A DNA stretch of 64,000 nucleotides, from contig DATLLJ010000002.1 of the NCBI GenBank assembly GCA_035537875.1, forward strand, positions 104,283 through 168,282. The letters are read 5' to 3'. The translations under genes were made by a program, and so were the position numbers. This document shows, one piece after another, positions 23,246 to 37,159 of the stretch (positions are counted from its first letter, which is position 1; each line of letters starts with the position of its first letter). Below the pieces are notes generated by a model. The model made no database searches, had not been told where the DNA came from, and saw nothing but the letters and a program-made list of their open reading frames with translations. This stretch comes from Vicinamibacterales bacterium. GTDB taxonomy: Bacteria > Acidobacteriota > Vicinamibacteria > Vicinamibacterales > CAVVIG01.

Positions 23246-23347
23246 TTGGATAATCGGGTAATCGGGTAATTGATGGGGGCATTGAGGGTTTCGGCCAATC
23301 ACCCAATCAATTACCCGATTACCCAATTACCCGATTACTCAATTCAT
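23233..23347. repeat. AT-rich inverted repeat built from 8-bp periodic units (long hairpin, probable bidirectional terminator or REP-like element)
   Basis: The left arm is AATCGGGT AATTGGAT AATCGGGT AATCGGGT AATTGATG. The right arm is TTACCCGA TTACCCAA TTACCCGA TTACTCAA. Positions 23256-23274 pair perfectly (19 bp) with 23306-23324, and imperfect pairing continues out to 23233/23347. Both convergent stop codons lie inside the arms. Confidence 0.7.
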
Positions 23348-25050
23348 TGTGCGATGGTCTTCCAATTCCTCGCCAGATAGTCGGCCGTCCGCCATGCGAG
23401 CGCCTGGGCGGTGAGCGTCGGATTGCGGGCGCCGCTCGTGCCCATCACCGACGCACCGAGCACGCCCAGATTGGGCGCCTCATGCGAAAAGCCCCAACGG
23501 TCGACCACGTTGGTGTCGGGGTTGGTGCCCATGCGCGTCCCGCCGTAGGCATGCGTCGTCGGGCCCATCGTGCCGATGCCAGCCTTGATCGTCGCGATGG
23601 CGCCGGACTCCATGAACCACGCCTCCATCTTGTCCTGGATGAAGGCGGCCAGCTTTCTCTCGTTGTCTTTGTGATCCGCCGTGATCCGGCACACCGGGAA
23701 TCCGAGAGGGTCGGTGACGGTCGGATCGAGATCGAGGTAGTTGTCTTCGTACGGCAGCGTGGTCTTCTGGAGGTAGGCGGAATTCGTCCGATCCGCATTC
23801 TCCTTGACGAACGCCTTCCACGCCGAGCCCCACTGGGGCGCTCTTCCGAACGTCGCCATCGTGGCGGCGCCGATGGGGCGTCGATCAGAGTAGACCCACA
23901 GGTTCCCACCACCGATGAAATCGAGTCCGGAGTGATCGAAGTTGTCGTCGGCCCAGTCGTCCACGGCGGTCCCTTGCGCAGGGAGACCGTACCAGTTGTT
24001 CAAATTGCGCGGAAAGAGGGCCGTAACGGCTGCGCCCTGATTGTGACTGAAGTAATGCCGGCCCACCTGCCCGTGGGTGTTCGACAGCCCGTTCGGGTAC
24101 GCCTTGGACTTCGAGAGCAGGAGAAGACGGACGTTCTCGTAGACGTAGCTCGCCAGCAGCACGACCGCAGCAGGTTGAAAGAACTCCTCGCCGTTCTTGA
24201 GATAGTTCACACCACGTACGCGACGGTTGGCGTCCACTTCGATCGTCGTCACCGTGGCCTGATCGACGACCTCGAGGCGTTTGGTTGCTTGCGCTCTGGG
24301 GATTGTCGTGACGGCGGTGGAATTCTTGGCATTGATATGGCACCCGCCGCGGCTGCAGAAGCCGTGATAGGCGCAGGCCGCTCGGTTCTGATACGTGCGC
24401 GAGTTGATCGCCGCCGGCCCTGGAAACGGATGCCATCCAAGCTTGCGTGCCGCCGACGCCATCATTTCGGTGAAACCGGTTCCCCGAAGAGGCGGCATTG
24501 GATACTCGCGACGGCGCGCGCCTTCGAAAATGTTGCCGCGTGGATCGGTCCTACCGCCGAGATTCCCGGCCTTGCCGGACACGCCAAGCTCGATCTCGAC
24601 CTTCTCGTAAAACGGCTCCAGCTCGTCGAGTCCGAACGGCCAGTCCTCAACCGTCGAACCCTTGGGGATGCGTGAAGCGCCGTACCGTTTGGTCGTCTCG
24701 CTGACCACCTTGAAGTCCCAGGGACTAAGGCGCCAACTCTGCGCCCAGTAGTGAAGGCTCGTCCCGCCAACGGCGTTCATCATGGGATGAATCGCCGGTC
24801 TGGGCGAGTACGGCGCCGATGCGTTGGGCCTGTGGGTGGGGACCTCGCGATTGGCCTTCTGCACCGCCTGCGGCCAGCCACGGAAGTTGTTTCGAAGTTC
24901 GTCAGGCGCAAAATCCGATGGGCTCAGCCAGCCGCCGGCCTCGAGGCCGACCACTTCGAGACCAGCCTGCGCGAGCGGAAGCGCCGCGACGCCGCCAACC
25001 GCTCCGAGACCGATGATCACGACGTCCTTGGGCGGCAGATTAGTCGCCAT
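23344..25050 (-). CDS. GMC-family FAD oxidoreductase (large subunit, gluconate 2-dehydrogenase-like)
   Basis: 568 aa. The N-terminal DVVIIGLGAVGGVAALPLAQAGLEVVGLEAGG is an FAD Rossmann motif, and the C-terminal part is GMC-like. Confidence 0.85.
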   Translation of the reverse strand: MATNLPPKDVVIIGLGAVGGVAALPLAQAGLEVVGLEAGGWLSPSDFAPDELRNNFRGWPQAVQKANREVPTHRPNASAPYSPRPAIHPMMNAVGGTSLHYWAQSWRLSPWDFKVVSETTKRYGASRIPKGSTVEDWPFGLDELEPFYEKVEIELGVSGKAGNLGGRTDPRGNIFEGARRREYPMPPLRGTGFTEMMASAARKLGWHPFPGPAAINSRTYQNRAACAYHGFCSRGGCHINAKNSTAVTTIPRAQATKRLEVVDQATVTTIEVDANRRVRGVNYLKNGEEFFQPAAVVLLASYVYENVRLLLLSKSKAYPNGLSNTHGQVGRHYFSHNQGAAVTALFPRNLNNWYGLPAQGTAVDDWADDNFDHSGLDFIGGGNLWVYSDRRPIGAATMATFGRAPQWGSAWKAFVKENADRTNSAYLQKTTLPYEDNYLDLDPTVTDPLGFPVCRITADHKDNERKLAAFIQDKMEAWFMESGAIATIKAGIGTMGPTTHAYGGTRMGTNPDTNVVDRWGFSHEAPNLGVLGASVMGTSGARNPTLTAQALAWRTADYLARNWKTIAQ

Positions 25051-25777
25051 GATGCGGCTCCCCTTTCGCAGCGTTCCCGTCCGAGCGGCTCGCCCTGGCG
25101 GGTCGTCTGTTCGAAAACATCGGCTCGTCGTAAGCCGACTTGCGAGTCGGCGTCAGCCGGGGATCCAGACGCTGATCGCTTTCAGACACCGCGAGACGAA
25201 GACCGGGGTATCCGAGCAGGTCCCATCCGACGAAGTTGGCGTTCCCACCGTAGTAGGGATCGCAGAACGTACCCTGGATCGTATGAGTGCGGACGAGGTT
25301 GAAGAAGGAGGCGGCATTCGGCGTGAAGCCGGTGGCAACGTTGTCCTCCATATCTTTCAAGACGGCGTCCTGATCGCGAGCCGTGAGATCGACAAAGCGC
25401 GACCCCTTCGACGTCCGCGCGTACGCATCGACGGCGCTCAGCCCGTTCCGATACGCCTCACGGGAAGAGGCCAGCGCACCGCCGAGAGCCCGATCGATGT
25501 AACGGGCGGCCCGTGCCTCCGTGGCGCCCGGCCCGTTGTCGTCGGTGGGAATCAGACGCGCCCCGATCGCCTCCACGATCTCCGCCTCTGCGGCCGTGAG
25601 TGTCTCCAGGGCCTCGCGTGGTGCCTGTCCCGCCTGGGGTGAAGCGGCCTGCGCCGGCAGCGCGGGCGAGGGCAGCAGCATGGCCGGCACGGTGGCGGCC
25701 GCGCCGGCGATGCCGACTCGTTTGAGGAGTTCGCGACGGGAAAGCGCTGGCCTCTCGTCTTCCGAGTGATTCGCCAT
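25040..25777 (-). CDS. Gluconate 2-dehydrogenase subunit 3-family protein (Tat-exported small subunit)
   Basis: The ATG at 25777 follows AGGAGG and gives MANHSEDERPALSRRELLKRVGIAGAAATVPAML. The gene overlaps the GMC start by 11 nt. Confidence 0.75.
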   Translation of the reverse strand: MANHSEDERPALSRRELLKRVGIAGAAATVPAMLLPSPALPAQAASPQAGQAPREALETLTAAEAEIVEAIGARLIPTDDNGPGATEARAARYIDRALGGALASSREAYRNGLSAVDAYARTSKGSRFVDLTARDQDAVLKDMEDNVATGFTPNAASFFNLVRTHTIQGTFCDPYYGGNANFVGWDLLGYPGLRLAVSESDQRLDPRLTPTRKSAYDEPMFSNRRPARASRSDGNAAKGEPHHGD

Positions 25778-25898
25778 CAGTGACCTCCTGGTGCTGTTTC
25801 CCGATGCCGACAAGAGGATACTTCGTGTCTTCACGGCCGAACTCGGCTATCCTCGGGCGTCCCGAATGAGGCCACCCTCGGTTCAGGAGGACCAGTCC

Positions 25899-26413: not shown

Positions 26414-29400
26414 TCAGTTCTGAAGCAGACGGGTCGCGAGACGACCGGAACTGCCCCGCAAGAGCGACTCCCGCACCCGTCGTGAAGCGTCCGATGCGTG
26501 TAATGGCAGGTGAATCTTCGCGGTCATATCGCCGCCCGGTTCGACCGTCATCCACAGGTGGCCGTGACAATCGCTGATGAGCGCCTGAAGCGCGCCGAGG
26601 TCGACTCCGGCTTTGGCCGCTGATTTATCGGGGCTCGGCGTGGTCGGGTTGCCGCGAAGCCCCAGCGGCCCGTCCTGCATCGCCCGCCTGATCTCCTTGA
26701 CCGTGATCAGCGCGTGAGGACCGAGACGGACGTTGGGATGCTTTGCGATGAATTGGCCATCGACGACGATGGTTGCCAGTTCGATCCTCAGTCGGCCACC
26801 GTAGGGCAGGCGCTCCCGGCAGTAACTGGCCAGATTGACGAGGAGTCTTTCGACCCGCTTCGGCTTGACATCCACCTTGAGCAGAGAAGCGGCCCTGGGC
26901 ATTTCGAGCTCGACATCGTCTCCGGCGACGCGCTTCAGAACCGGCTCGAGATCGCGTAAGACCCTGTTCAAATCGACCGGCGGAAGACTGCTGATCTCTT
27001 CGTCCCCGTACACGGCGAGCTGTCGAAGGAAGCTGGCGGCGCGCTTCACCTCATCAAGCACCTGTTGACCTTGCTGCCGCATGGCCGCGTCGGTGTCGAC
27101 AGTCGCCAGCCACTGCTCGACGTCCTGATGGATCTCGTTGAGCAGATTGCCACAGGTGACAGCGACTTCCGACGCCAGCCGTCCGACGGCTTCCATCCGG
27201 TGGGCGTCGCCGAGCCTGTCCTGGAGGGCACGAAGATTCGTCAGATCTTCGGCGACGATCTGGATGAGGTCAGGAGAAGATACGGCTGCCGACAGGCGAA
27301 CGAAGAGGCGGCTTCCATTTCTGTGCTTCCACGTGGTCTCCAGTGATTCCTTCGCGTTCGTGCTCAGGCAGCGCTCGAGCAGATACGACAGGTCCCCCGG
27401 TGATTCGAAGACCGAAGCGGCGAAGCCCGCGCCCCGCAGTTCGTCCGCCTTCCGACAGCCGACCAGGACCTCAAAGGCGCGGTTCGCCTCGATGAGCCCG
27501 CCGTCGCGGGTGCATCGGCAGAGCGGCAGGGGAGAAGTCTCGAACTGCCGACGATTCTCTGTCCGACTGTCATCGAGCCGCTTCTGCAGTTGGGGCACGC
27601 GGTTGGCTTCAGCCTGCAGAACCTCGTGACGGCTTCGAAAGCCATCGAGCTCCTGAATCGTCGCTGTGAGCTTCCCTTTGAGCTGCTCGATTTCCCGGTT
27701 TCGCGTCGCCAGCGTCGTCCGCAAACCGGTCTGAAGCTGGGTCCGCTCGTTCTCTGACGCCTGCAAGGCCGCCGCGTGCCGCGCTGCCTGCTCTTTGAAG
27801 CGAGCGTCACGCTCGCTGACGGAAGCGACCAGCGTCGCCACCGCGACGGCATGCTCGTTCGAGGCCCGATCGAATGCCTGTTGAAGGTCCCTCTGAGCCT
27901 CCAGGTACTGCTGAGCCTCGGCCTTCATGCGTTCTCGAATGGTTTCGACTTCCCCGGTCAACGAATCGCGTTCCAGCGTGAGGCGCTGGAGACGATCGTG
28001 CAGCTCAGCCAGCCGACTCTCCTGGTCACGTCGCTCTCGAGCGATCTCTTCTTCGAGTCGCGACACATGCTCGCGCGCACGCGCGGCGGCGGCTGCGGCC
28101 TCCTCGTGGAGACGCCGTTCGGTCTCAGCTGCGGTGGATCGCGTCTCCGCAACGTTGCGCTCCAACGCTTCGCGCTGTTCGGTTTCCCGAGTAAGCCGCG
28201 CTTCAAGCGCCGAGTACTGCTCTGACGCCGCCGCATGCTCCCGGATGGCGAGCTCGGCGGCTTCCTGGAGTGCGGTCGTCGCCTCGGCCAGCTGCAACTG
28301 GAGCGAATCACGGGTTGCGGCCGTCTCGGCAAGCTGCGATGCAAGCTGCATCTCGCGCTCGCCGGCCGCTTTCAGTTCACCGGTGGCGCGTTCATCCGCT
28401 TCCCTGAGTGCGATCGCCGCCTCGGTCAAGCGCTGCTCGAGGGCCCGGTGAGTTGCGGCCCCATCGGCGAGCTGGGCCGTGAGCTCCGCCTCGCGCATCG
28501 TCAAGCGCTCGACGTCGGCGGTGATCGATTCATGCTTGCGCAGGGTCACCGAGAGAGCCGACGCCAATTCTCGCGCCTGCTCGTCCAGGGCATTTCGTGC
28601 GGTCGCCACCTCGGTCAGCTGCTGATCGAGCGCCTCTCGGGCCGCGGTCGCGTCGGCAAGTCGGGATACGAGGTCCGCTTCACGCGCCTCGGCTGCCTGT
28701 CGCTCGCTGCTGGCGCGTTCGTCTGCTTCTTGGAGCGCGGTCGTCGCCTCCGTGAGCCGCAGATCGAGCGTCTGGCCAGTCGAGGCCGCGTCGGCAAGGT
28801 GGGATGCGAGCTCCGCTTCACGCGCGTCGGCCGCACGCCGTTCGCCCGCGGCGCGCTCGTTCGCTTCTTGGAGCGCGGCCGTCGCCTCCGTCAGCCGCAG
28901 CTCGAGCGTCTGGCGAGTCGAGGCCGACTCGGCAAGGTGGGACGAGAGCTCCGCCTCCCGAAGGGTCAAACGTTCGACGTCGGCCGTGACCGACTCATGG
29001 TTACGGAGAGTTGCCGAGAGAGCCGCCGCCAATTCGCGCGCCTGTTCATCCAGGGAATTTCGTGCGGCCGCTACCTCGGTCAGCTGCTGCTCGAGCGTCT
29101 GCCGGATCTCGGCAGCCTCGGCAAGTTCGGACGAGAGGTCCGCCTGACGCGCAAGAGCTGCCTGTCGTTCCCGCCCGGTGCGCTCGTCCGCTTCCTGGAG
29201 CGCGGCCGTCGCCTCCGTGAGCCGCAGCTCGAACGACTGGCGGGCGTGTATCGCCTCCGACAGCTGCGAGGCGAGTTCCGCCTCCCGCGCCCCGGCGGCC
29301 TGCCGTTCGCGGGTGGCGCGTTCGTTCGCCTCGTGGAGGGCCGTCGTCAACTCCGTCAGTCGCAGCTCGAGCGCCTGCCGGCTCGAGGCCGCGTCGGCAA

Positions 29401-31375
29401 GTTGGGACGAAAGCTCCGCCTCACGCTGCGTCAGGCGCTCGACGTCAGCAGCGGCCGACTCGTGGCTGCTCTGGACCGAGGAGAGGGCCGCCGACAGTTC
29501 GCGCGCCTGCTGCTCAAACGTATCTCGAGCCGCTGCTGCCTCGGTCACACGCTGCTCAAGGACCTGACGGGTGTGAACGGCGTCGGCAAGCTGGGATGCA
29601 AGCTCCGCTTCACGCGCGGCGGCCGCCTCCCGTTCGCTTGTGGCGCGTGCGTGCGCTTCTTCGAGCGCGCTCGTCACATCCATCAGTCGCAGCTCGAGCG
29701 CTTGACGGGCAGCGCCCGCGTCCGCAAGCTGCGAGGCGACGTCCGCCTGTCGCCGCGTTAAACGCTCGACGTCGGCGGTGGCCGACTCGTGGTTGCGCCG
29801 GGCCACGGTGAGGGCCGCCGACAGTTCGCGCGCCTGCTGGTCCAGCGCATGGCGTGCGGTGACCGCCTCGGTCAACTCGGCGTCGAACTGTGCCTGGCGC
29901 TCGGAAAGGGCGGCCGCGGCGCTTGTCATCGCCGACGCATGTCGCTCCTCAAGCTCCCGCAGGGCGATTTCCGTCTGGGCGAGGGTCTGTTCGAGGGCGG
30001 CGCGCGATGCACGCTCCTCACGAACCACCTGGTCGAGCTCCGCCTGTCGCGCGGCGGCCGCCTGCCGTTCGCGGGTTACCCGCTCGTCCGCCTCTGTGAG
30101 CGCCGTCGCCGCTTCCGCCAGCCCCAGTTCGAGCGTCTCGCGAGTGTGGACCGCGTCGGCAAGCTGCGAGGCGAGCTCCGCTTGTCGCGCGGCGGCCGCC
30201 TGCTGTTCGCGGGTTACGCGCTCGTCGGCCTCTGTGAGCGCCGCCGCCGCTTCCGCCAGCCCCAGTTCGAGCGTCTCGCGAGTGTGGACCGCGTCGGCAA
30301 GCTGCGAGGCGAGCTCCGCTTCGCGATGCCTCAGACGCTCGACGTCGGCAATGGCCGTCGCATGGTTCTGCCTGGCCCGGTGCACCTCGATGGCCGCCAC
30401 GCGCAGCTGCTCGTCGATCATGTCCCGCATGGCCGCGGCGCGCGCAATCGCGATGTCGTGCTTCGCCTGACGTTCGGCCAGCTGACTGGCGGCGGCGGTC
30501 AGCGCCGACTGGTGGCGCTGCTCCGCATCCTGAAGTGCGGCCTTGACATCGACGAGCTCCTCCTCGAGGCTGCCGCGCGCCTCGCGCTCCAATTGAACAA
30601 CGCGTTCGAGCTTCGTTTCGCGATCGGCCGCCGCCGACTGTTCGGCTGCCCGGCTCTGTTCACGCTGCCGCAGCAAGGCCTCCACGTCGGCCAGGCGATC
30701 CTGGAGCGCCGACTTACTGCGAACCGCATCGGCCAGCCTCGCGTCCAGTGCCTGCCACTGCGCGAGCCGATCCGCCGCCGGTGAATCCGAGGCTGTCGCC
30801 CGTCTGGCGCGATCGAGCAACGCTTGCACGTCAGCCGGTATAGGTGCGGCGCCGACGCGCGTCGCGCTGGTTCCCGTCGGCCGGAGAGGCTGCGAGGGTT
30901 GCTTTACGTCCAAAGTCTCAACCTTGTGAGTGCGCGCTGGCGCGATCGGCTCCCTGGATGAACGCTCGCGGTCGCCATCGACAGGCGTATGCGCAATCGC
31001 TCGAGTGATGGCCCCCGCAAGAGCGCCGACGTTCTTGGCGGTGTGAACGCCAGCGCCCACGTGGGCCGATTCGAGCTCGAGGCTTGCGCCGTCTGGCGAG
31101 ATGACCACGACCGGGGCAGTGAGCCCAAGGCGCCGAACCTGGGCCAGAAACGCGTTGAAGTTTTCACTGCTGAGCTGGGTTTCCGCGACGACAGCCGCCA
31201 CGTCAGGGTTTTGTTCAATCCGGTGCGTGGCATGGTCGAAGTGAGTGGCCCACAAGACCTTAACCGTTGGCGTTACGCTGTAGAGCGCAGCGGCAACAGC
31301 CTGGGCATCGGTGCGCGCGGTGGCGACATAGAGAATCTTCATGCACTCGGGCGAACTTGTGAGAATTCGCCGCAC
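26414..31375 (-). CDS. Giant coiled-coil signalling-like protein: receiver-like domain, ~1100-aa coiled coil, PAS domain, degenerate histidine-kinase core
   Basis: This is a single 1653-codon ORF; the likely start is MKILYVAT at 31342. Residues 12-130 are CheY-like. Residues ~190-1281 are rich in A/E/R/L/Q, contain almost no Pro or Gly, and include tandem repeats. Residues 1282-1390 are PAS-like. Residues 1391-1415 (HRMEAVGRLASEVAVTCGNLLNEI) are HisKA-like. Residues 1467-1640 are HATPase_c-like (VDLNRVLRDLEPVLKRVAGDDVELE...RLLVNLASYCRERLPYGGRLRIE...). Confidence 0.85.
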   Translation of the reverse strand: MRRILTSSPECMKILYVATARTDAQAVAAALYSVTPTVKVLWATHFDHATHRIEQNPDVAAVVAETQLSSENFNAFLAQVRRLGLTAPVVVISPDGASLELESAHVGAGVHTAKNVGALAGAITRAIAHTPVDGDRERSSREPIAPARTHKVETLDVKQPSQPLRPTGTSATRVGAAPIPADVQALLDRARRATASDSPAADRLAQWQALDARLADAVRSKSALQDRLADVEALLRQREQSRAAEQSAAADRETKLERVVQLEREARGSLEEELVDVKAALQDAEQRHQSALTAAASQLAERQAKHDIAIARAAAMRDMIDEQLRVAAIEVHRARQNHATAIADVERLRHREAELASQLADAVHTRETLELGLAEAAAALTEADERVTREQQAAAARQAELASQLADAVHTRETLELGLAEAATALTEADERVTRERQAAAARQAELDQVVREERASRAALEQTLAQTEIALRELEERHASAMTSAAAALSERQAQFDAELTEAVTARHALDQQARELSAALTVARRNHESATADVERLTRRQADVASQLADAGAARQALELRLMDVTSALEEAHARATSEREAAAAREAELASQLADAVHTRQVLEQRVTEAAAARDTFEQQARELSAALSSVQSSHESAAADVERLTQREAELSSQLADAASSRQALELRLTELTTALHEANERATRERQAAGAREAELASQLSEAIHARQSFELRLTEATAALQEADERTGRERQAALARQADLSSELAEAAEIRQTLEQQLTEVAAARNSLDEQARELAAALSATLRNHESVTADVERLTLREAELSSHLAESASTRQTLELRLTEATAALQEANERAAGERRAADAREAELASHLADAASTGQTLDLRLTEATTALQEADERASSERQAAEAREADLVSRLADATAAREALDQQLTEVATARNALDEQARELASALSVTLRKHESITADVERLTMREAELTAQLADGAATHRALEQRLTEAAIALREADERATGELKAAGEREMQLASQLAETAATRDSLQLQLAEATTALQEAAELAIREHAAASEQYSALEARLTRETEQREALERNVAETRSTAAETERRLHEEAAAAAARAREHVSRLEEEIARERRDQESRLAELHDRLQRLTLERDSLTGEVETIRERMKAEAQQYLEAQRDLQQAFDRASNEHAVAVATLVASVSERDARFKEQAARHAAALQASENERTQLQTGLRTTLATRNREIEQLKGKLTATIQELDGFRSRHEVLQAEANRVPQLQKRLDDSRTENRRQFETSPLPLCRCTRDGGLIEANRAFEVLVGCRKADELRGAGFAASVFESPGDLSYLLERCLSTNAKESLETTWKHRNGSRLFVRLSAAVSSPDLIQIVAEDLTNLRALQDRLGDAHRMEAVGRLASEVAVTCGNLLNEIHQDVEQWLATVDTDAAMRQQGQQVLDEVKRAASFLRQLAVYGDEEISSLPPVDLNRVLRDLEPVLKRVAGDDVELEMPRAASLLKVDVKPKRVERLLVNLASYCRERLPYGGRLRIELATIVVDGQFIAKHPNVRLGPHALITVKEIRRAMQDGPLGLRGNPTTPSPDKSAAKAGVDLGALQALISDCHGHLWMTVEPGGDMTAKIHLPLHASDASRRVRESLLRGSSGRLATRLLQN
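28220..30325 (-). repeat. In-frame tandem repeat array inside the giant gene (138-bp A units, 189-bp B units, 465-bp A-A-B super-repeat)
   Basis: Nine 46-aa A units have the consensus REAELASQLADAxxxRQxLELRLTEATxALQEADERxxRERQAAxA. Three clear 63-aa B units have the consensus RxAxLxSxLAxAxxxRxxLxQQLTEVAxARNxLDEQARELxxALSxTLRxHESxTADVERLTx. The two N-terminal A units (30188-30325 and 30050-30187) differ at only about 4 of 138 nt. Confidence 0.9.
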
Positions 31376-32195: not shown

Positions 32196-32681
32196 TTACT
32201 TCCAGGAGGCGATGGCTTTCCCCTGCAGCGAATCGGGTCCGAACTCGAAGAGTTCGATTCTGATGCCACCCGGAGCTGTCGCGTTCGCGACCGCTGAATC
32301 CTGCCGGCCGGCGCGCGGATCCTCCACGGTCACGCCGCGCTGCTTCAGGGTTGCGACCGCATCGTGCAGGTTCTCGACGTGGAGCCCGAAGTGCGTCAGC
32401 CCGGGCGGCCGCGTGGCATTGGACGGCTGCAACTCGACGAACGTATCGCGGCTCACCTGCACGTAGGCCAGCGTGGGCTGTCCTTTCTCGTCGCGTACGG
32501 TGAACGCTTCGCGAAATCCCATCTTCTGAGTGTAGAAGGTGAAAGCCTCGTCGAAATTCTCGACGCTGACGCCGACGTGGTTCAGGTAGTTCATGCCGGC
32601 AAGCCGGCCGCCCTGCGCGAAGCCCGGCGCGACAAGCGCTCCAACGACCATTCCAAGGAGAAACCCGGCTGACGCACGCAT
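32196..32681 (-). CDS. VOC (glyoxalase/bleomycin-resistance/dioxygenase) family protein with signal peptide
   Basis: The ATG at 32681 follows AAGGAGG and gives MRASAGFLLGMVVGALVAPGFAQG. Family features are LNHVGVSVENFDEAFTFYTQKMGF...HFGLHVENL. Confidence 0.75.
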   Translation of the reverse strand: MRASAGFLLGMVVGALVAPGFAQGGRLAGMNYLNHVGVSVENFDEAFTFYTQKMGFREAFTVRDEKGQPTLAYVQVSRDTFVELQPSNATRPPGLTHFGLHVENLHDAVATLKQRGVTVEDPRAGRQDSAVANATAPGGIRIELFEFGPDSLQGKAIASWK

Positions 32682-32691
32682 TGCCGCCTCC

Positions 32692-33144
32692 TTACGCTGC
32701 CACCCGCGTACTTTGACTCGCGACACATTGCCATCGGCCGTCACGGAACACGAACACGTCGACGTACCGGAACGTCACCGCCAGCGGCTTCCCCTTGCTG
32801 GGTCCCAGGAGATGCTGCGACATCCAGACGACCGCCGTGTCTCCGTAGATCTTGACGATGAATTCGTCGAGCGTGGACGAATCGATCTGCTGATCGAAGG
32901 TGGCGGCGCGGGACAGCTCTTCGTCGCGGTCGCCGCGGGTCCCGTCGCCGTAGGTCGCGACGAACTCCTCGGCCAGGATTCCCGCGATGAAAGCCACGTC
33001 CCTGCGGCGAAACGCGGCGTCCCAGTCGTGCTCGAGCTGAATGAGAATCTGCTGATCCGACTTCACTGCCGCGGTCTGGCCGCCGGAAACCGTTGCGACG
33101 CATACGGCGGCGAGCAGAGCGACGAGGACCGAGCACCGGATCAT
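32692..33144 (-). CDS. Secreted DUF4440/NTF2-like protein
   Basis: 150 aa with a signal peptide, then ILIQLEHDWDAAFRRRDVAFIAGILAEEF...FRDGRWQCVASQST. Confidence 0.7.
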   Translation of the reverse strand: MIRCSVLVALLAAVCVATVSGGQTAAVKSDQQILIQLEHDWDAAFRRRDVAFIAGILAEEFVATYGDGTRGDRDEELSRAATFDQQIDSSTLDEFIVKIYGDTAVVWMSQHLLGPSKGKPLAVTFRYVDVFVFRDGRWQCVASQSTRVAA

Positions 33145-34448: not shown

Positions 34449-35138
34449 TCAGGCCGCCAGATACGCCTGGCGCACTTTCTCCGGAAAGCGCTCAATGGCA
34501 TAGCGCAGCATCGTCCTCGGCATGCGCCGCGCGTGCCTCCGAAGAAACGCCTCCTCCGTCGGACGATCGCGCTTCCCCACCTCACGAAGCATCCAGCCGA
34601 CCGCCTTGTGAACGAGGTCGTGGTGATCGTCGAGGAGCATTCGGGCGATTGTCAAGGTGTCGCGGAACTCGCCGCGCCTGATGTAATGGCCCGTCGCAAT
34701 CACGGCAATCCGGCGGCGCCAGACGAGCTTGGACCGTGCAAGCTCCCGCAGCACCCTGCGGTCGCCTTCTTGAAGGTGCGCGCCGACAATCTGCGCCGCA
34801 GAGCAGTCCACGAGATCCCAGTTGTTGATGCGCGCGGTATGTCGGAGATACAGACGGAAGATGGCATTCCGCGTGCGGGTGTCCCCACGGGCGTACTGCC
34901 GCACGAGAATCAGGAGCGCCAGCAGCCGCTCTTCGTGCCATGGCGATCCCAGCAGCGCTGATACCTCTCGTCGGGGCAGCTGCTGATAGTCATGCGCGAG
35001 ACGATGAAGCACCGGGAGCCGGATACCGAGAAAGCGATCTCCGGCGCCGTACTCGCCGGGCGCCGTTTTAAAGAATCGCTGGAGAGCGGCGGCGTGCCGC
35101 ACATCACCCATCGATTTCATCCTGCGGTGGAGGTTCAA
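34449..35138 (-). CDS. DNA alkylation repair protein (AlkD/AlkC-like HEAT-repeat glycosylase family)
   Basis: 229 aa. The motifs LQRFFKTAPGEYGAGDRFLGIRLPVLHRLA...WHEERLLALLILV...INNWDLVD match the family. Confidence 0.8.
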   Translation of the reverse strand: MNLHRRMKSMGDVRHAAALQRFFKTAPGEYGAGDRFLGIRLPVLHRLAHDYQQLPRREVSALLGSPWHEERLLALLILVRQYARGDTRTRNAIFRLYLRHTARINNWDLVDCSAAQIVGAHLQEGDRRVLRELARSKLVWRRRIAVIATGHYIRRGEFRDTLTIARMLLDDHHDLVHKAVGWMLREVGKRDRPTEEAFLRRHARRMPRTMLRYAIERFPEKVRQAYLAA

Positions 35139-35163
35139 CGGCCGCGCCCCGAGTCCTGCGCCC

Positions 35164-36216
35164 TTACCGTGCCTCTTGCGCGCGCTGCTTTTCGAGTCCC
35201 AGCTGCGCGGCCCGCGCGCATCCCTGCATGACCTGGAAGTAGCGCTGGACCCATTCGGCGCCCAGCATGTAGGGATGCGGCCCTTTCCCGCGTCCGGCCA
35301 GCATCCGGTTCTTGTTGACCGCGTTGTCGAACTCCGAATGATTCGAGAGCAGCACGGTCGCGCCCGTGGCCATCGCCTGCGCCGCGATGTGCTTCTGCGA
35401 ATCGATGTACGTCTGGAAGTTCCGGATGCCGGGCTCCGGTGTGTTGTTCACGAAATTGAAGGCCGTGCCGCCCGAGTACACAACGTTCACCGGAACGCCG
35501 TTGTCGCGCACGGTGAACGTGTAGGACAGCGTGCCTGGCGTGTGACCCGGTGTCTCCCAGATGGTCACGCTGGTGTCGCCGAGCGTGATCTTCATGCCAT
35601 CGGTCGCGACGATATCGCGCTTCGGGGCCATCGTCTTGTACCGGTTGGGATACATCTCGACGAGCCGCCAGTCGGGGCCACCCATGACGATTCGCGCACC
35701 GTAGTCTTTCTGCAGCATCTCGGCGCCGCCGATGTGATCGGCATGGGCATGGGAAATGAGGACGTACTTGATATCTCGCGGGTTGAGCCCGAGTCGTTTC
35801 AACCCGCCGACGATGAGCTCCTGGGAGTTGTAGGGGAAAATCGTGTCGAAGACGATGATGCCGTCGCTCGTGGTCAGGGCCCATGACGAGTGCACCTGCC
35901 CGCCGATAAAGTAGAGGTTGTCGAAGACCTTCGCTGAATCCGCGTACCAGGTGTCGCGCGCCGGTGCGGTCGCCGGCTTGACGATGTACTCCGGCGCGTT
36001 GTCGGCCGTGTTCTCGCCGCCGCTCTGGGGCAGCAGGCAGGTCCGGACCAACGTGCCGAGGAACTCGAATCCCGCCGCGTTCTTGGCCGCCTGCACCGAC
36101 TCGCGGATCTGCGCATCGAAATCGGCGCCGGCCGACTTCTGTTGAGCGCCGCCGGTCGCGGCGACGGCAACCGCCACGGCCAGTGCTGTACCGATCGTTA
36201 CAAGAGGCGATGTCAT
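35164..36216 (-). CDS. Secreted MBL-fold metallo-hydrolase (subclass B3 beta-lactamase-like)
   Basis: The ATG at 36216 follows GGAGG, and the product has a signal peptide. It carries ISHAHADHIGG (the HxHxDH motif). Confidence 0.8.
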   Translation of the reverse strand: MTSPLVTIGTALAVAVAVAATGGAQQKSAGADFDAQIRESVQAAKNAAGFEFLGTLVRTCLLPQSGGENTADNAPEYIVKPATAPARDTWYADSAKVFDNLYFIGGQVHSSWALTTSDGIIVFDTIFPYNSQELIVGGLKRLGLNPRDIKYVLISHAHADHIGGAEMLQKDYGARIVMGGPDWRLVEMYPNRYKTMAPKRDIVATDGMKITLGDTSVTIWETPGHTPGTLSYTFTVRDNGVPVNVVYSGGTAFNFVNNTPEPGIRNFQTYIDSQKHIAAQAMATGATVLLSNHSEFDNAVNKNRMLAGRGKGPHPYMLGAEWVQRYFQVMQGCARAAQLGLEKQRAQEAR

Positions 36217-36344
36217 GGAACCTCCAGCGAGGCCACAGCGTAACATCACCGGCTTCGACCTCCGACAGCCAAACGCGGAAAAATGGCGCGCGTCTCAGCC
36301 AGAGGCATGTAGACTTGACGTCGTTCACGCCCAAGGAGGGCCGG

Positions 36345-37148
36345 ATGGCACTGAGAGATGGCTCGGTCGGCGTGGTTTCCCTGGCGTTCGCCGCCACCGC
36401 GATGGTCCTGCTCTCGCAGAACCCGGCGGCGCAGACGCCAGTCGAGCACAGCTCCGAGGCTCGGTTCCAGCTGGACGTTCGTGCTCCCGATGCGGCTATC
36501 GCGAGCTACCTGCCGGCGGGCTTCACGCTCAATGTCGCGACGCAGGGAGCCGCCAAGGACTGCAATCTGCGCGTGGTGTTCATCGACCGCGTGACGATCA
36601 ACGCGCCGGACGGCAAGCCCGCGGGCAGAACCGGCTCGAATCGGCTCGTCTATTTGATTGTCCCTGTCAGAGATCCAAGCGGAACCAACGCGCAACTCGT
36701 CATCGGCGGCCTGACCGAAGACCCGGCCGATGCGCCCGGCCCGTTTGGCGTGTACCTGCCGGCCACGATCCACACAATGCAGCGCTCGACATCGAGTACC
36801 GCCAAGGGCGGCAGCAGCACCATCCTCGATTCACAGGACTGGGTCTTTGCGGCCGCGACGGGGGAGCATCTCGAACTGCACATCAGGTACGAGCGCGGCG
36901 TCGCCAACAAAGCCAACCCGACGGAGACCAAGTTCTATTCCGCCAAGACGCCGGGGTTCTTTCAAATCTCCCGAGACGAACGCGTGCTCGACATCCTGCG
37001 AAACGTCACCACGAATCCTCCCGATCGCGTGAAGGAGTTTTCGTTCAAAGCCTCGGGCGGCAGCTACGCCAAGTTGTTCGACGGGACCGAGAAGCTGTTG
37101 AGCTGGGACAACATCCTCTGGATCAACCGCAACGTTTCCATACCCTAG
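36345..37148 (+). CDS. Secreted hypothetical protein
   Basis: The ATG at 36345 follows AAGGAGGG and gives MALRDGSVGVVSLAFAATAMVLLSQNPAAQ. The 267-aa product has normal composition and no domain I recognise. Confidence 0.65.
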   Translation: MALRDGSVGVVSLAFAATAMVLLSQNPAAQTPVEHSSEARFQLDVRAPDAAIASYLPAGFTLNVATQGAAKDCNLRVVFIDRVTINAPDGKPAGRTGSNRLVYLIVPVRDPSGTNAQLVIGGLTEDPADAPGPFGVYLPATIHTMQRSTSSTAKGGSSTILDSQDWVFAAATGEHLELHIRYERGVANKANPTETKFYSAKTPGFFQISRDERVLDILRNVTTNPPDRVKEFSFKASGGSYAKLFDGTEKLLSWDNILWINRNVSIP

Positions 37149-37159
37149 GCGGAATCTGG

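What the first reader, a model, noticed from the sequence alone, without database searches (positions are those of the whole stretch)
26414..27205. Histidine-kinase core appears to lack the phospho-acceptor His and the ATP-binding boxes
Hybrid and PAS kinases usually read ..MEAIGRLAGGVAHDFNNLL.. at the dimerisation helix. Here the equivalent helix reads HRMEAVGRLASEVAVTCGNLLNEI, so by my alignment the H-box His is replaced (V/T). In the HATPase_c-like part three boxes look degenerate:
- The N-box (..NLxxNAxDA..) reads LLVNLASYCRERL.
- The G1 box (DxGxG) region reads VKEIRRAM.
- The G2 box (GxGxGL) region reads KAGVDLGAL.

Taken together this looks like a pseudokinase that keeps the fold but not the catalysis. 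The alignment was made by eye only.
Basis: inference. Interest (0 to 1): 0.55.

Follow-up and report, generated by a model that had tools for sequence, protein, structure and literature searches.

The report
Giant coiled-coil protein with dead histidine-kinase core
The flagged segment is the C-terminal end of a 1,642–1,653-residue soil-bacterium protein that keeps the histidine-kinase fold but has lost every catalytic motif, and it belongs to a conserved, undescribed Vicinamibacterales family in which this dead domain is the best-conserved part.

Summary
Window 26414-27205 (minus strand) encodes the DHp-CA core of one intact ORF (26414-31375; the likely start is the ATG at 31342).

- **Motif losses.** A profile of 33 canonical relatives plus CckA aligns end to end (142 bits, posterior >=0.95). 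It places Val1406 at the phospho-His, Tyr1518 at the Mg-binding Asn, EIRRA for DxGxG, GNPTT for the F box and KAGVDL for GxGxGL. Pfam HisKA and HATPase_c do not fire even at E<=10. The AlphaFold model is still a PAS-DHp-CA kinase fold.
- **Not decay.**
  - More than 250 homologs share the same replacement motifs: 46 loci in about 45 Vicinamibacterales/Acidobacteriota genomes plus over 200 metagenome proteins.
  - They form one clade (200/200 bootstrap).
  - dN/dS is about 0.25 in DHp and CA, but about 0.9 in the former ATP lid.
  - The dead CA is the most conserved domain.
- **Architecture.** The order is pseudo-receiver (Glu at the phospho-Asp site), a coiled coil of about 1,080 residues built from tandem repeats, PAS, then the pseudo-kinase. 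There is no conserved neighbour gene.
- **Interpretation.** It is most likely a dimeric, non-catalytic scaffold or sensor, working like DivL or PsmA joined to a FrzS-like part.
- **Verdict.** It is a new family of a known kind, and its function is untested.

The parts
26414..31375 (-). Whole ORF, 1,653 aa counted from the GTG at 31375. The likely true start is the ATG at 31342 (MKILYV..., as in the orthologs), which gives 1,642 aa. The stop codon is at 26414-26416.
   Evidence: ORF list. The orthologs' N-termini start with MKILYV. Coordinates were checked by translation.
30971..31342 (-). N-terminal pseudo-receiver, aa 12-135, with a CheY-like (beta-alpha)5 fold. The phospho-Asp position is Glu (VVAETQ), the D12/D13 acidic pair is lost, and the Lys109-equivalent is kept.
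   Evidence: Pfam OKR_DC_1_N (described by Pfam as the Orn/Lys/Arg decarboxylase N-terminal domain; that it is CheY-like rests on my own knowledge and) hits at 6e-7, above its cutoff. The alignment to CheY/REC is in register. The AF2 model has pLDDT 75 and pTM 0.71. Foldseek gives TM 0.65-0.75 to receivers, including the pseudo-receivers CikA, KaiA-N and FrzS. A REC HMM built from the outgroups does not hit it.
30821..30970 (-). Pro/Ser/Thr-rich linker, aa 136-185. It is not conserved.
   Evidence: No ortholog gives a BLAST hit to this segment. Sequence shown.
27590..30820 (-). Coiled-coil stalk, aa 186-1262 (1,077 aa), built from tandem 46-aa and 155-aa repeats (138- and 465-nt DNA periods).
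   Evidence: Composition is A 23%, E 14%, L 12% and R 12%, with only 2 Pro. Hydrophobic periodicity is 3.5 in nearly all 100-aa windows, and there are ten copies of the R-E-A-E-L-A-S-Q-L-A-D unit. TRF finds periods 138 and 465, with one pair 96% identical. There are weak NCBIfam hits to SMC and helix-rich coiled coils.
27236..27580 (-). PAS domain, aa 1266-1380, joined to DHp helix 1 by one continuous helix.
   Evidence: Pfam PAS_4 hits at 3.7e-5 (above cutoff), and NCBIfam sensory_box at 2e-5. AF2 pLDDT is about 90-96, and helix 114-160 of the model runs from PAS into the DHp.
26996..27214 (-). Pseudo-DHp helical hairpin, aa 1388-1460.
   Evidence: AF2 helices 114-160 and 165-197. Median identity to orthologs is 59%. 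dN/dS is 0.27.
27158..27160 (-). Codon for Val1406, which occupies the phospho-acceptor His position. It is followed by the family-invariant Thr-Cys.
   Evidence: Alignments. Among the 120 homologs the position reads V89/A11/I7 for the three commonest residues, and no homolog carries His there. T is present in 112/120 and C in 119/120.
26498..26980 (-). Pseudo-CA (GHKL-like) domain, aa 1466-1626.
   Evidence: AF2 shows an alpha/beta domain. Foldseek matches CckA CA (5idm) and the DHp-CA cores of CckA (5idj) and ZraS (9jfj). Identity to orthologs is 64-66%, the highest of all domains. dN/dS is 0.24 without the lid.
26792..26848 (-). Former N box, RLLVNLASYCRERLPYGGR. The Mg-binding Asn is replaced by Tyr1518.
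   Evidence: Y is present in 106/120 homologs.
26678..26710 (-). Former G1 box region, LITVKEIRRAM. DxGxG is absent, and the adenine-binding Asp position is Glu1561.
   Evidence: E is present in 105/120 homologs.
26612..26692 (-). Former ATP lid and F box, aa 1562-1588. It is variable, gappy and predicted to be disordered.
   Evidence: pLDDT is below 50 for model residues 306-325. dN/dS is about 0.94. No BLAST conservation.
26549..26614 (-). Former G2 box and following helix/strand, KAGVDLGALQALISDCHGHLWM. GxGxGL is replaced by (P)GVDLG, and there is a family-specific Cys1603.
26417..26497 (-). Basic C-terminal tail, aa 1627-1653. The family consensus ends R..R.R...RWF, while this copy ends RLLQN.
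   Evidence: Column counts and the A1 consensus.

Best explanation
The segment is the C-terminal PAS-DHp-CA module of a giant cytoplasmic protein. It descends from a PAS-containing hybrid histidine kinase of the AHDFNNLL/CckA-like type, and it has become a histidine pseudokinase.

**What it cannot do.** It cannot autophosphorylate on the canonical site, because Val replaces His. It lacks the HisKA phosphatase motif. It has lost all GHKL ATP/Mg-binding motifs, and the former ATP lid now drifts almost neutrally.

**What is still under selection.** The rest of the DHp and CA domains are under purifying selection and carry new, family-invariant motifs. The fold therefore appears to have been repurposed as a binding or conformational module rather than as an enzyme.

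**Architecture.** The whole protein reads pseudo-receiver (Glu at the phospho-Asp site), flexible linker, a heptad coiled coil of about 1,080 aa, PAS, then pseudo-DHp-CA.

**Inferred mechanism.**
- It forms a parallel homodimer held by the DHp four-helix bundle and the long coiled coil. At 0.15 nm per residue the coiled coil would be roughly 160 nm long.
- The two 'phospho-dead' two-component modules at its ends act as protein-protein interaction sites. DivL uses its DHp-CA to bind DivK~P in this way, PsmA binds DivIVA, and the FrzS pseudo-receiver binds SgmX.
- The PAS domain, still linked to DHp helix 1 by a continuous helix, couples a signal or a partner to that interaction.
- It is therefore a non-catalytic scaffold or sensor, not a phosphotransfer enzyme.

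**Shown versus inferred.** Shown here are homology, fold, loss of all catalytic residues, family-wide conservation, a single origin, selection and architecture. Inferred are dimerisation, partner binding and the scaffold role.
For: **Loss of catalytic residues.** (profile alignment 142 bits, posterior >=0.95). Pfam gives no HisKA or HATPase_c while the control kinases score strongly.

**Fold retained.** AF2 pLDDT is 80 with PAS+DHp+CA topology. Foldseek gives 4e-16 to LOV-HK chimeras, and also hits YF1, CckA 5idj and ZraS. It also hits non-kinase HK-like proteins: NifL and the plant phytochrome HK-related domain.

**Descent from active kinases.** NCBIfam CckA, AtoS and VirA hit at 1e-17 to 1e-22. 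The nearest relatives, at <=34% identity, all have AHDFNNLL, NLAVNARDAM, DTGxGM and GTGLGL plus a C-terminal REC.

**One origin, then conservation.**
- The family forms one split in NJ trees, 200/200 bootstraps.
- Identity is 40-99% within the family and 17-34% to canonical kinases.
- At least 46 loci occur in about 45 species-representative Vicinamibacterales/Acidobacteriota genomes, mostly one per genome.
- No homolog in which the H-box could be located carries His at that position: 115 of the 120 proteins at 90% clustering, and 117 of the further 50%-cluster representatives apart from the 4 canonical kinases.

**Selection.** dN/dS is 0.27 for DHp, 0.24 for CA without the lid and 0.94 for the lid. 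Pseudo-CA is the most conserved domain at 64-66%, above DHp 59%, PAS 50%, pseudo-REC 37% and coiled coil 31%.

**Pseudo-receiver.**

**Coiled coil.**. The architecture is shared by orthologs of up to 2,147 aa.

**Orphan status.** There is no conserved neighbour, and no RR, HPt or HK gene nearby.

**Precedents.** DivL binds DivK~P through its DHp-CA without kinase activity (PMC4211667). PsmA lacks the His and the ATP motifs, shows no autokinase activity and binds DivIVA (PMC12963549). FrzS combines a pseudo-receiver with a coiled coil (PMC1974792, PMC12632262).
Against: - Nothing here shows a binding partner, dimerisation or localisation. The scaffold or sensor role rests on analogy.
- No coordinates were available, so I could not test whether the family-specific residues (Tyr1518, Arg1520, Glu1521, Arg1522, Thr1558, Glu1561, Cys1408, Cys1603) line the former nucleotide pocket. 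If they do, that would favour a new ligand site instead.
- The adenine-contacting Asp is conservatively replaced by Glu, and 'MPxGG' after the N box is kept. Residual nucleotide binding is therefore not formally excluded.
- dS values are near saturation (median about 1.1), and the lid alignment is gappy. The dN/dS figures are approximate.
- The pseudo-receiver was detected by sequence in only 22 of 46 orthologous ORFs. Some genes are split by frameshifts in the repeats.
Confidence: 0.65

Rival explanations
1. The CA domain has been remodelled into a new small-ligand, metal or redox sensor. On this view the family-specific invariant residues replace the ATP site with a different binding site, and the protein is a receptor rather than a passive scaffold. 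The residues are Tyr and Arg-Glu-Arg on the N-box helix, Thr-x-Thr-Glu on the G1 strand, Pro-Gly-Val-Asp at G2, and the Cys at H+2 together with the Cys before GGHLW.
For: - The substitutions are not random. They are fixed across more than 200 homologs.
- The pseudo-CA is the most conserved domain.
- Two family-specific, near-invariant Cys residues appear exactly where the canonical relatives have Phe (HDF) and Ser (KQSGG).
- CckA's CA domain is known to bind a second ligand, c-di-GMP (PDB 5idm title).
Against: - No ligand-binding family or motif was recognised by Pfam or NCBIfam.
- The lid that would cover such a pocket evolves neutrally and is predicted to be disordered.
- The spatial clustering of these residues could not be tested.
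- Strong conservation is explained equally well by a protein-protein interface.
Confidence: 0.17
2. It is an 'anti-kinase'. The pseudo-DHp would form heteromers with a paralogous active histidine kinase and silence or modulate it. RetS acts on GacS in this way (established knowledge, not tested here).
For: - DHp helix 1 keeps the RMEAVGRLA motif shared with the nearest active kinases.
- The DHp is under purifying selection.
- The gene is an orphan with no cognate regulator gene nearby.
Against: - Identity to any active kinase core is at most 34%.
- No candidate partner kinase is linked in any of 46 loci.
- The very long homodimer-type coiled coil argues for stable homodimers.
- This mechanism does not explain the strong conservation of the CA domain.
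Confidence: 0.1
3. It is still a phosphotransfer protein that uses a non-canonical acceptor or ATP site. Candidate acceptors are another His, or Thr1407/Cys1408 next to the old site. Alternatively it is phosphorylated in trans by another kinase.
For: - Thr (112/120) and Cys (119/120) immediately after the old His position are nearly invariant.
- The Asp-to-Glu change at the adenine-contact position is conservative.
- DivL Y550H can regain autokinase activity when DivK~P is present (PMC4211667).
Against: - The Mg-Asn, both glycine-rich loops and the F box are all gone, and the lid is unconstrained. No GHKL protein is known to bind ATP without them (established knowledge).
- The nearby His residues are not conserved: His1392 is Q56/H51 and His1416 is H53/S29/R10.
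- PsmA, which has comparable losses, shows no autokinase activity (PMC12963549).
Confidence: 0.05
4. It is a decaying relic, a gene on its way to becoming a pseudogene, and the degenerate boxes are simply erosion.
For: All catalytic motifs are lost at once. Some MAG orthologs are split into 2-3 ORFs.
Against: - The 1,653-codon ORF is intact.
- The replacement motifs are identical across an entire order.
- dN/dS is about 0.25.
- Within-family divergence equals that of the active outgroup kinases, 53% against 52% median identity.
- The split ORFs lie in repeat regions of draft metagenome-assembled genomes, so assembly or sequencing indels are a plausible cause (my inference, not tested).
Confidence: 0.03

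Closest known systems
DivL of Caulobacter crescentus and other alphaproteobacteria (pseudo-histidine kinase)
   Same: - It is a multi-PAS/PAS plus DHp-CA protein.
- The phospho-acceptor His is replaced, and kinase and phosphatase activities are absent.
- The kinase core is repurposed as a binding and sensing module, and signal flow runs 'backwards' through PAS (PMC4211667).
   Different: - DivL keeps the N, G1, F and G2 boxes and has Tyr at the His site. Here all boxes are replaced, and the residue is Val/Ala/Ile.
- The lineages differ: Alphaproteobacteria against Acidobacteriota.
- DivL has no pseudo-receiver and no giant coiled coil.
- DivL did not appear among the top 50 Foldseek hits.
- The partner DivK and the CckA pathway have no counterpart shown here.
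PsmA of Streptomyces (histidine pseudokinase of the polarisome)
   Same: - It is a PAS-DHp-CA protein lacking the His.
- The ATP-binding motifs are not conserved, and the ATP lid is incompatible with ATP binding.
- The HisKA phosphatase motif is lost, and there is no autokinase activity.
- It is part of a very long protein and associates with coiled-coil polarity proteins (PMC12963549).
   Different: - PsmA's order is PAS-PAS-DHp-CA, then a ~700-aa proline-rich disordered linker, then a C-terminal REC. Here the order is pseudo-REC, structured coiled coil, PAS, DHp-CA.
- In PsmA the residue at the His position varies between species. Here the surrounding motif V-T-C is almost invariant.
- PsmA orthologs were found only in Streptomycetaceae.
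- No homology beyond the general HK fold was shown.
FrzS (and, from my own knowledge, AglZ) of Myxococcus xanthus: pseudo-receiver plus long coiled coil
   Same: - An N-terminal receiver-fold domain lacks the phosphorylation chemistry and is followed by an extended dimerising coiled coil.
- It is used as a polar landmark or adaptor (PMC1974792, PMC12632262).
- The FrzS receiver domain 2i6f is a Foldseek hit of the N-terminal model (TM 0.67-0.71).
   Different: - FrzS and AglZ have no PAS or kinase-like module at the other end.
- Sequence identity is only about 20%.
- Here the phospho-Asp position is Glu or Asp, and the Lys is retained.
Canonical PAS-containing hybrid histidine kinases of the CckA-like 'AHDFNNLL' type (Pfam HisKA + HATPase_c + Response_reg)
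   Same: - They are the evolutionary source.
- They share the same PAS-DHp-CA order, the flanking motif RMEAVGRLA...NLL, the LxNLA...MPxGG scaffold and the ...GGHLW strand.
- NCBIfam CckA hits at 1.5e-22.
   Different: All catalytic residues are lost, the C-terminal REC is absent, and Pfam models no longer recognise either domain. Core identity is at most 34%.
Other non-kinase HK-fold proteins: NifL, the plant phytochrome HK-related domain, the RcsD HK-like domain and ChpT
   Same: - They use the HK fold without His autophosphorylation.
- NifL (9qq6) and plant phytochromes are among the Foldseek hits.
- The Pfam ChpT C-terminal domain gives a sub-threshold hit on the N-box helix.
   Different: - These are resemblances of fold and principle only.
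- The ChpT hit is also given by active kinases, so it is uninformative.
- NifL still binds nucleotide (my own knowledge).
- None of them has the coiled-coil and pseudo-receiver architecture.

Membership tests
Catalytically active HisKA-type histidine kinase | Phospho-acceptor His in the H box of DHp helix 1 | tested here: not met
   Val1406 aligns to the His in the phmmer, MAFFT and profile alignments. No family member has His there.
Catalytically active HisKA-type histidine kinase | N box with the Mg-coordinating Asn (NLxxNAxxA) | tested here: not met
   The region reads NLASYCRER, with Asn -> Tyr1518. Y is present in 106/120 homologs.
Catalytically active HisKA-type histidine kinase | G1 (DxGxG), F and G2 (GxGxGL) boxes forming the ATP site and lid | tested here: not met
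   The three regions read EIRRA, GNPTT and KAGVDL. The lid has pLDDT below 50 and dN/dS of about 0.94.
Catalytically active HisKA-type histidine kinase | Pfam HisKA (PF00512) and HATPase_c (PF02518) above the gathering score | tested here: not met
   No hit at E<=10 for three different query lengths. Control outgroup kinases score 1e-10 and 1e-20 to 1e-24.
Catalytically active HisKA-type histidine kinase | DHp helical hairpin plus alpha/beta CA fold, with homologous descent from HKs | tested here: met
   AF2 model. Foldseek 4e-16 to PAS-HKs and 6e-9 to CckA. NCBIfam CckA 1.5e-22. Outgroup HMM 142 bits.
Catalytically active HisKA-type histidine kinase | ATP-dependent autophosphorylation | not testable with these tools
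   This needs a biochemical assay.
Histidine pseudokinase (functional class: DivL, PsmA) | HK fold retained, phospho-acceptor His absent, gene maintained by selection | tested here: met
   Fold. His absent. dN/dS about 0.25 and order-wide conservation.
Histidine pseudokinase (functional class: DivL, PsmA) | Non-catalytic binding of a partner (a phosphorylated RR for DivL, DivIVA for PsmA) | not testable with these tools
   No conserved neighbour suggests a partner.
DivL orthologs | Tyr at the His site with intact N, G1, F and G2 boxes; alphaproteobacterial CckA/DivK pathway | tested here: not met
   The site is Val, not Tyr, and all boxes are lost. DivL's features are taken from PMC4211667. 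The family is confined to Acidobacteriota MAGs.
PsmA orthologs | PAS-PAS-DHp-CA, proline-rich IDR and C-terminal REC; Streptomycetaceae only | tested here: not met
   The domain order is different (pseudo-REC, coiled coil, PAS, DHp-CA). PsmA's features are taken from PMC12963549.
Pseudo-receiver domain | Receiver (CheY-like) fold | tested here: met
   AF2 gives the beta-alpha topology, with alpha4 not resolved. Foldseek TM is 0.65-0.75 to receivers and to the known pseudo-receivers CikA, KaiA and FrzS. Pfam OKR_DC_1_N hits at 6e-7.
Pseudo-receiver domain | One or more of the five catalytic residues (DD, D, T/S, K) missing | tested here: met
   The in-register alignment to CheY/REC shows the acidic pair lost, Asp57 -> Glu in this copy (E or D across the family) and Lys kept. 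Caveat: the hhalign probability is low (7.5%) and the model MSA is shallow (4 sequences).
FrzS/AglZ-type pseudo-receiver plus coiled-coil proteins | Sequence-level orthology to FrzS or AglZ | not tested
   There is only a fold-level hit to FrzS 2i6f at 20% identity. The resemblance is architectural.

The most novel reading that the evidence does not exclude
The family may be a new class of HK-fold receptor. On this reading the former ATP pocket and H-box region have been rebuilt into a new ligand-, metal- or redox-sensing or partner-recognition site, using the invariant Tyr, Arg-Glu-Arg, Thr-x-Thr-Glu and Pro-Gly-Val-Asp motifs and the two family-specific Cys residues. That site would sit at one tip of a coiled-coil rod of about 160 nm, with a constitutively 'on-like' Glu-bearing pseudo-receiver at the other tip. 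The protein would then be a cytoskeleton-like signalling tether, specific to Vicinamibacterales, that positions or measures something across the cell. It would not be merely a passive dead kinase.
Probability: 0.2. Interest if true: 0.7.

Novelty: new member of a known kind. Interest (0 to 1): 0.42.

Why it matters
Bacterial histidine pseudokinases are known from very few studied cases. The phrase search returned about ten papers, which centre on DivL and PsmA and include one on the RcsCDB system.

This family adds an independent example in a different phylum, and it is order-wide. The loss of catalysis is complete, yet the 'dead' catalytic domain is the most strongly conserved part of the protein. 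That makes it a clean natural case for asking what an HK fold does when it no longer handles phosphate.

It also joins two separately known ideas in one polypeptide: a pseudo-receiver with a coiled coil, and a PAS domain with a pseudo-kinase.

Vicinamibacterales are, to my knowledge, abundant and mostly uncultured soil bacteria. A conserved, usually single-copy giant protein of this kind is a candidate organiser of their cell biology.

There is also a practical point. Automated annotation calls these proteins 'PAS domain S-box protein' or 'signal transduction histidine kinase'. Censuses of two-component systems will therefore either miss them or miscount them as kinases.

Tried and rejected
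**Searches that gave nothing or were unavailable**
- Homolog search with the N-terminal domain alone found no hits at E<=1e-3. The domain was therefore modelled with only four sequences.
- The literature search for this family in Vicinamibacter returned only two unrelated metagenomics papers.

**Gene context**
- I clustered all ORFs of at least 100 aa in 46 orthologous loci plus the window. No family other than the gene itself, and its antisense shadow ORFs, occurs in more than 5 loci.
- The contexts of P0068 and P0077 are also unrelated.
- A glyoxalase gene lies near the gene both in the window and next to P0068. It is not general, so I treat it as chance.
- I searched the window for paralogs, canonical kinases and receivers and found none.

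**Weak or uninformative results**
- The profile-profile alignment of the N-terminal domain to REC is in register, but its probability is only 7.5%. I therefore relied on Pfam OKR_DC_1_N, AF2 and Foldseek.
- The sub-threshold Pfam HPTransfase (ChpT) hit was rejected as evidence for a phosphotransferase, because active kinases give the same hit.

**Hypotheses rejected**
- Alternative phospho-acceptor His residues were rejected. His1392 and His1416 are not conserved.
- The 'eroding pseudogene' idea was rejected on dN/dS and motif conservation.

**Technical**

Full report
**1. What is at the coordinates**

Window 26414-27205 lies at the 3' end of a single uninterrupted ORF on the minus strand, 26414-31375, of 1,653 codons. 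Orthologs begin MKILYV..., so the real start is probably the ATG at 31342, which gives 1,642 aa. The N-, G1- and G2-box strings are at aa 1511-1523, 1559-1566 and 1588-1596.

**2. Check of the observation**

Pfam recognises only a PAS domain in this protein. HisKA and HATPase_c do not appear at E<=10 for the whole protein, the last 428 aa or the 274-aa core. In the same call two of the nearest canonical relatives score HisKA at about 1e-10, HATPase_c at 1e-20 to 1e-24, and Response_reg.

The region is nevertheless clearly homologous to kinase cores:
- NCBIfam full-length models hit at CckA 1.5e-22, AtoS 3.4e-18 and VirA 3.1e-17.
- phmmer finds the solved CckA DHp-CA (5idj) at 2.8e-8.

It aligns the query end to end at 142 bits, with posterior probability '*' through every box. 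The result is:

| Box | Canonical consensus | Query |
|---|---|---|
| H | AHDfnnll | AVTCGNLL |
| N | nLavnarDAmp | NLASYCRERLP |
| G1 | sDtGvGm | KEIRRAM |
| F | FePff | GNPTT |
| G2 | GtGlGL | KAGVDL |

The HisKA phosphatase motif (H-[DE]-x-x-[NT]) is lost as well.

**3. Fold**

The AlphaFold2 model was built on a 90-sequence alignment (pLDDT 80). It shows a PAS domain, one continuous helix running from PAS into DHp helix 1, a second DHp helix, and an alpha/beta CA domain. Only the former ATP lid and the C-terminal tail are disordered.

Foldseek against the PDB returns the following:
- PAS/LOV histidine kinases first (8a52 at 4e-16, YF1 4gcz).
- CckA 5idj, ZraS, HK853 and LvrB.
- HK-like non-kinases: NifL and the plant phytochrome C-terminal modules.

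**4. It is a family, not an accident**

- A search with the C-terminal 428 aa returns at least 393 proteins. The best 120 (E<1e-108, 46-83% identity) are annotated 'PAS domain S-box protein' or 'histidine kinase'. Where taxonomy is given they come from Vicinamibacterales, and none carries a precomputed HisKA or HATPase_c hit.
- A profile search of 1.84 billion cluster representatives puts roughly 130 clusters at 50% identity ahead of the first canonical kinases.
- A scan of species-representative genomes finds 46 loci at 44-62% identity in about 45 genomes. They are all Vicinamibacterales/Acidobacteriota MAGs, apart from two ~2-kb contigs binned as Gemmatimonadaceae, and there is mostly one locus per genome. 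Identity then drops sharply to <=33%.
- Every member on the near side of that gap lacks H, N, G1 and G2.
- Every one of the 33 proteins on the far side has AHDFNNLL, NLAVNARDAM, DTGxGM and GTGLGL plus a C-terminal receiver.
- The family is a single split in neighbour-joining trees in 200/200 bootstraps. Core identity is 40-99% within the family and 17-34% to canonical kinases. The canonical sample is as diverse internally (median 52%) as the family (53%).

This pattern fits one loss event on a long stem branch, followed by normal constraint.

**5. The boxes were replaced, not eroded**

Counts below are from the 120 metagenome homologs.

| Region | Family residues |
|---|---|
| H position | V89, A11, I7 (the three commonest residues) |
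| H+1 | Thr 112 |
| H+2 | Cys 119 (canonical relatives have Asp-Phe at H+1/H+2) |
| N-box helix | N-L-A-S-Y-[GA]-R-E-R-M-P-x-G-G (Y106, R118, R119, M116) |
| G1 strand | H-A-L-I-T-V-T-E (E105 at the adenine-Asp position) |
| G2 | P-G-V-D-L-G (D115) |
| After G2 | C-G-G-H-L-W (C116; canonical Ser) |

The same motifs appear.

Nei-Gojobori dN/dS over about 1,000 ortholog pairs is 0.27 for DHp and 0.24 for CA without the lid. For the former lid it is 0.94. dS is near saturation and the lid alignment is gappy, so these are rough figures.

By identity to the query, the pseudo-CA is the best conserved domain (64-66%). DHp follows at 59%, PAS at 50%, the N-terminal domain at 37% and the coiled coil at 31%. 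The lid, the linker and the tail are not alignable.

The gene is therefore functional. The part that used to bind ATP is free to drift, and the rest of the 'catalytic' domain is what selection cares about most.

**6. The rest of the protein**

*N-terminal domain (aa 12-135).* It matches Pfam OKR_DC_1_N above threshold. Pfam describes this family as the Orn/Lys/Arg decarboxylase N-terminal domain; that it has a CheY-like fold is my own knowledge, supported by the decarboxylase hits. The AF2 model shows receiver topology, with alpha4 not resolved (pLDDT 75, pTM 0.71). It matches receiver domains at TM 0.65-0.75, including the known pseudo-receivers CikA, KaiA-N and FrzS. When aligned in register with CheY, the acidic pair is gone, the phospho-Asp is Glu here (Glu or Asp across orthologs) and the conserved Lys is kept. 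A REC HMM built from the outgroup receivers does not detect it. It is a pseudo-receiver. Glu at that site can act as a phosphomimetic in many canonical receivers (PMC12632262).

*Coiled coil (aa 186-1262).* This stretch is 72% Ala, Glu, Leu, Arg, Gln and Asp, with two prolines in 1,077 residues and a 3.5-residue hydrophobic period. It is built from tandem 46-aa and 155-aa units, seen as 138- and 465-nt DNA repeats with one pair 96% identical. At 0.15 nm per residue this is a rod of roughly 160 nm (inference).

*Orthologs.* They share the repeat motif and the architecture. They range from about 370 to 2,147 aa, and many are 1,300-1,900 aa. The stalk length is therefore evolutionarily labile.

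**7. Context**

The neighbouring genes fall into three groups:
- Upstream: ABM monooxygenase, glyoxalase, a methyltransferase and a DNA-alkylation repair enzyme.
- Further upstream: PrpD.
- Downstream: DUF4440, gluconate 2-dehydrogenase subunit 3 and a 568-aa ORF that I take to be a GMC-type oxidoreductase. That last name is my own reading of its sequence; it was not scanned.

No neighbour is conserved across 46 loci. The 64-kb window holds no canonical kinase or receiver. The gene is a stand-alone orphan.

**8. Mechanism**

*Shown.* The protein cannot carry out the canonical His autophosphorylation, phosphotransfer or phosphatase chemistry, and it lacks every residue a GHKL domain uses for ATP-Mg.

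*Inferred.* It is a parallel homodimer held by the DHp bundle and the coiled coil, and its two phospho-dead two-component modules serve as interaction surfaces. The PAS domain, still lever-coupled to DHp helix 1, modulates that interaction. The closest working models are:
- DivL, whose DHp-CA senses DivK~P and whose PAS domains act as output (PMC4211667).
- PsmA, a pseudokinase lacking the His and the ATP motifs that binds DivIVA at the Streptomyces polarisome (PMC12963549).
- FrzS, a pseudo-receiver plus coiled coil that acts as a polar beacon (PMC1974792, PMC9811614, PMC12632262).

*Rivals.* A remodelled ligand or redox site in the CA (0.17), a RetS-like anti-kinase (0.10), non-canonical phosphorylation (0.05) and a decaying relic (0.03).

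**9. Comparison and novelty**

It works like a histidine pseudokinase, but it is not a DivL or PsmA ortholog. DivL keeps the N, G1, F and G2 boxes and has Tyr at the His site. PsmA has a different domain order and lineage.

Neither Pfam nor NCBIfam has a model for this family. No paper in the searchable library describes it.

I file it as a new member of a known kind, the histidine pseudokinases. It has an undescribed architecture and unusually strong conservation of the dead domain.

Interest is moderate. The finding is real, clean and order-wide, but the principle is already established and the function is untested.

Noticed in passing
window 28247-30322 (minus-strand gene; repeats reported on the + strand): There are intragenic tandem DNA repeats with periods of 138 nt (46 aa) and 465 nt (155 aa). 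One 138-nt pair at 30034-30321 is 96% identical, which implies a very recent duplication. Ortholog lengths vary from about 370 to 2,147 aa, so the coiled-coil stalk length appears to expand and contract quickly.
   Followed up: partly
window 30971-31342 (-): The N-terminal receiver-fold domain has Glu at the phospho-Asp position (Glu or Asp across orthologs), has lost the acidic pair and has kept the Lys. To my knowledge plant pseudo-response regulators show the same Glu substitution. Pfam Response_reg does not hit it.
   Followed up: yes
L009 724-7164 (+), ortholog of 2,147 aa: This ortholog carries an additional Pfam Response_reg hit at aa 145-233 (1.1e-8, two stretches). That is after the family's N-terminal pseudo-receiver, so some members may have two receiver-like domains. 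The catalytic residues of the second one were not inspected.
   Followed up: no
window 26417-26497 (-) and family alignment A1: Most family members end in a basic tail with a conserved R..R.R...R-W-F motif (W80 and F78 of about 108). This could be a short docking motif. The window's copy deviates, ending ...RLATRLLQN.
   Followed up: no
window 27152-27154 (Cys1408) and 26567-26569 (Cys1603), both on the minus strand: Two near-invariant, family-specific cysteines replace Phe (H+2 in the H box) and Ser (before GG-x-I/L-W) of the canonical relatives. Whether they lie close together in 3D (a disulfide or metal site) could not be tested, because no coordinates were available.
   Followed up: partly
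window 28235-29761 (+), 29789-30784 (+), 29778-30470 (+), 27927-28451 (+): Long antisense 'ORFs' of up to 508 aa lie opposite the coiled-coil repeats. They recur opposite the gene in the orthologous loci and are best read as shadow ORFs of a GC-rich repetitive gene, not as genes. The same stretch has a strong AT skew, -0.21 on the + strand.
   Followed up: partly
L006, L007 and L041 (orthologous loci): In several MAGs the gene is split into 2-3 overlapping ORFs or is frameshifted inside or near the repeats. The likely cause is indel errors in draft assemblies, but real pseudogenisation in single lineages is not excluded.
   Followed up: no
window 32196-32744 (-) and L001 6975-7931 (-): A glyoxalase/VOC-family gene lies within about 1 kb upstream of the gene, both in the window and at the P0068 locus. 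It is not conserved across the 46 genome loci, so this is probably coincidence.
   Followed up: partly
window 35135-36397 (-) and 36831-38258 (-): Two sizeable ORFs (420 and 475 aa) upstream of the gene have no Pfam match at E<=0.1.
   Followed up: no
window 23344-25834 (-): A 568-aa ORF that I read as a GMC-type oxidoreductase is followed by a gluconate 2-dehydrogenase subunit-3 protein. The second protein has what looks like a twin-arginine-like N-terminus (RRELLKRVG). Together they look like a periplasmic sugar or alcohol dehydrogenase pair unrelated to the finding. The GMC assignment is my own reading of the sequence and was not scanned. Subunit 3 is Pfam PF13618 at 1.9e-32.
   Followed up: no
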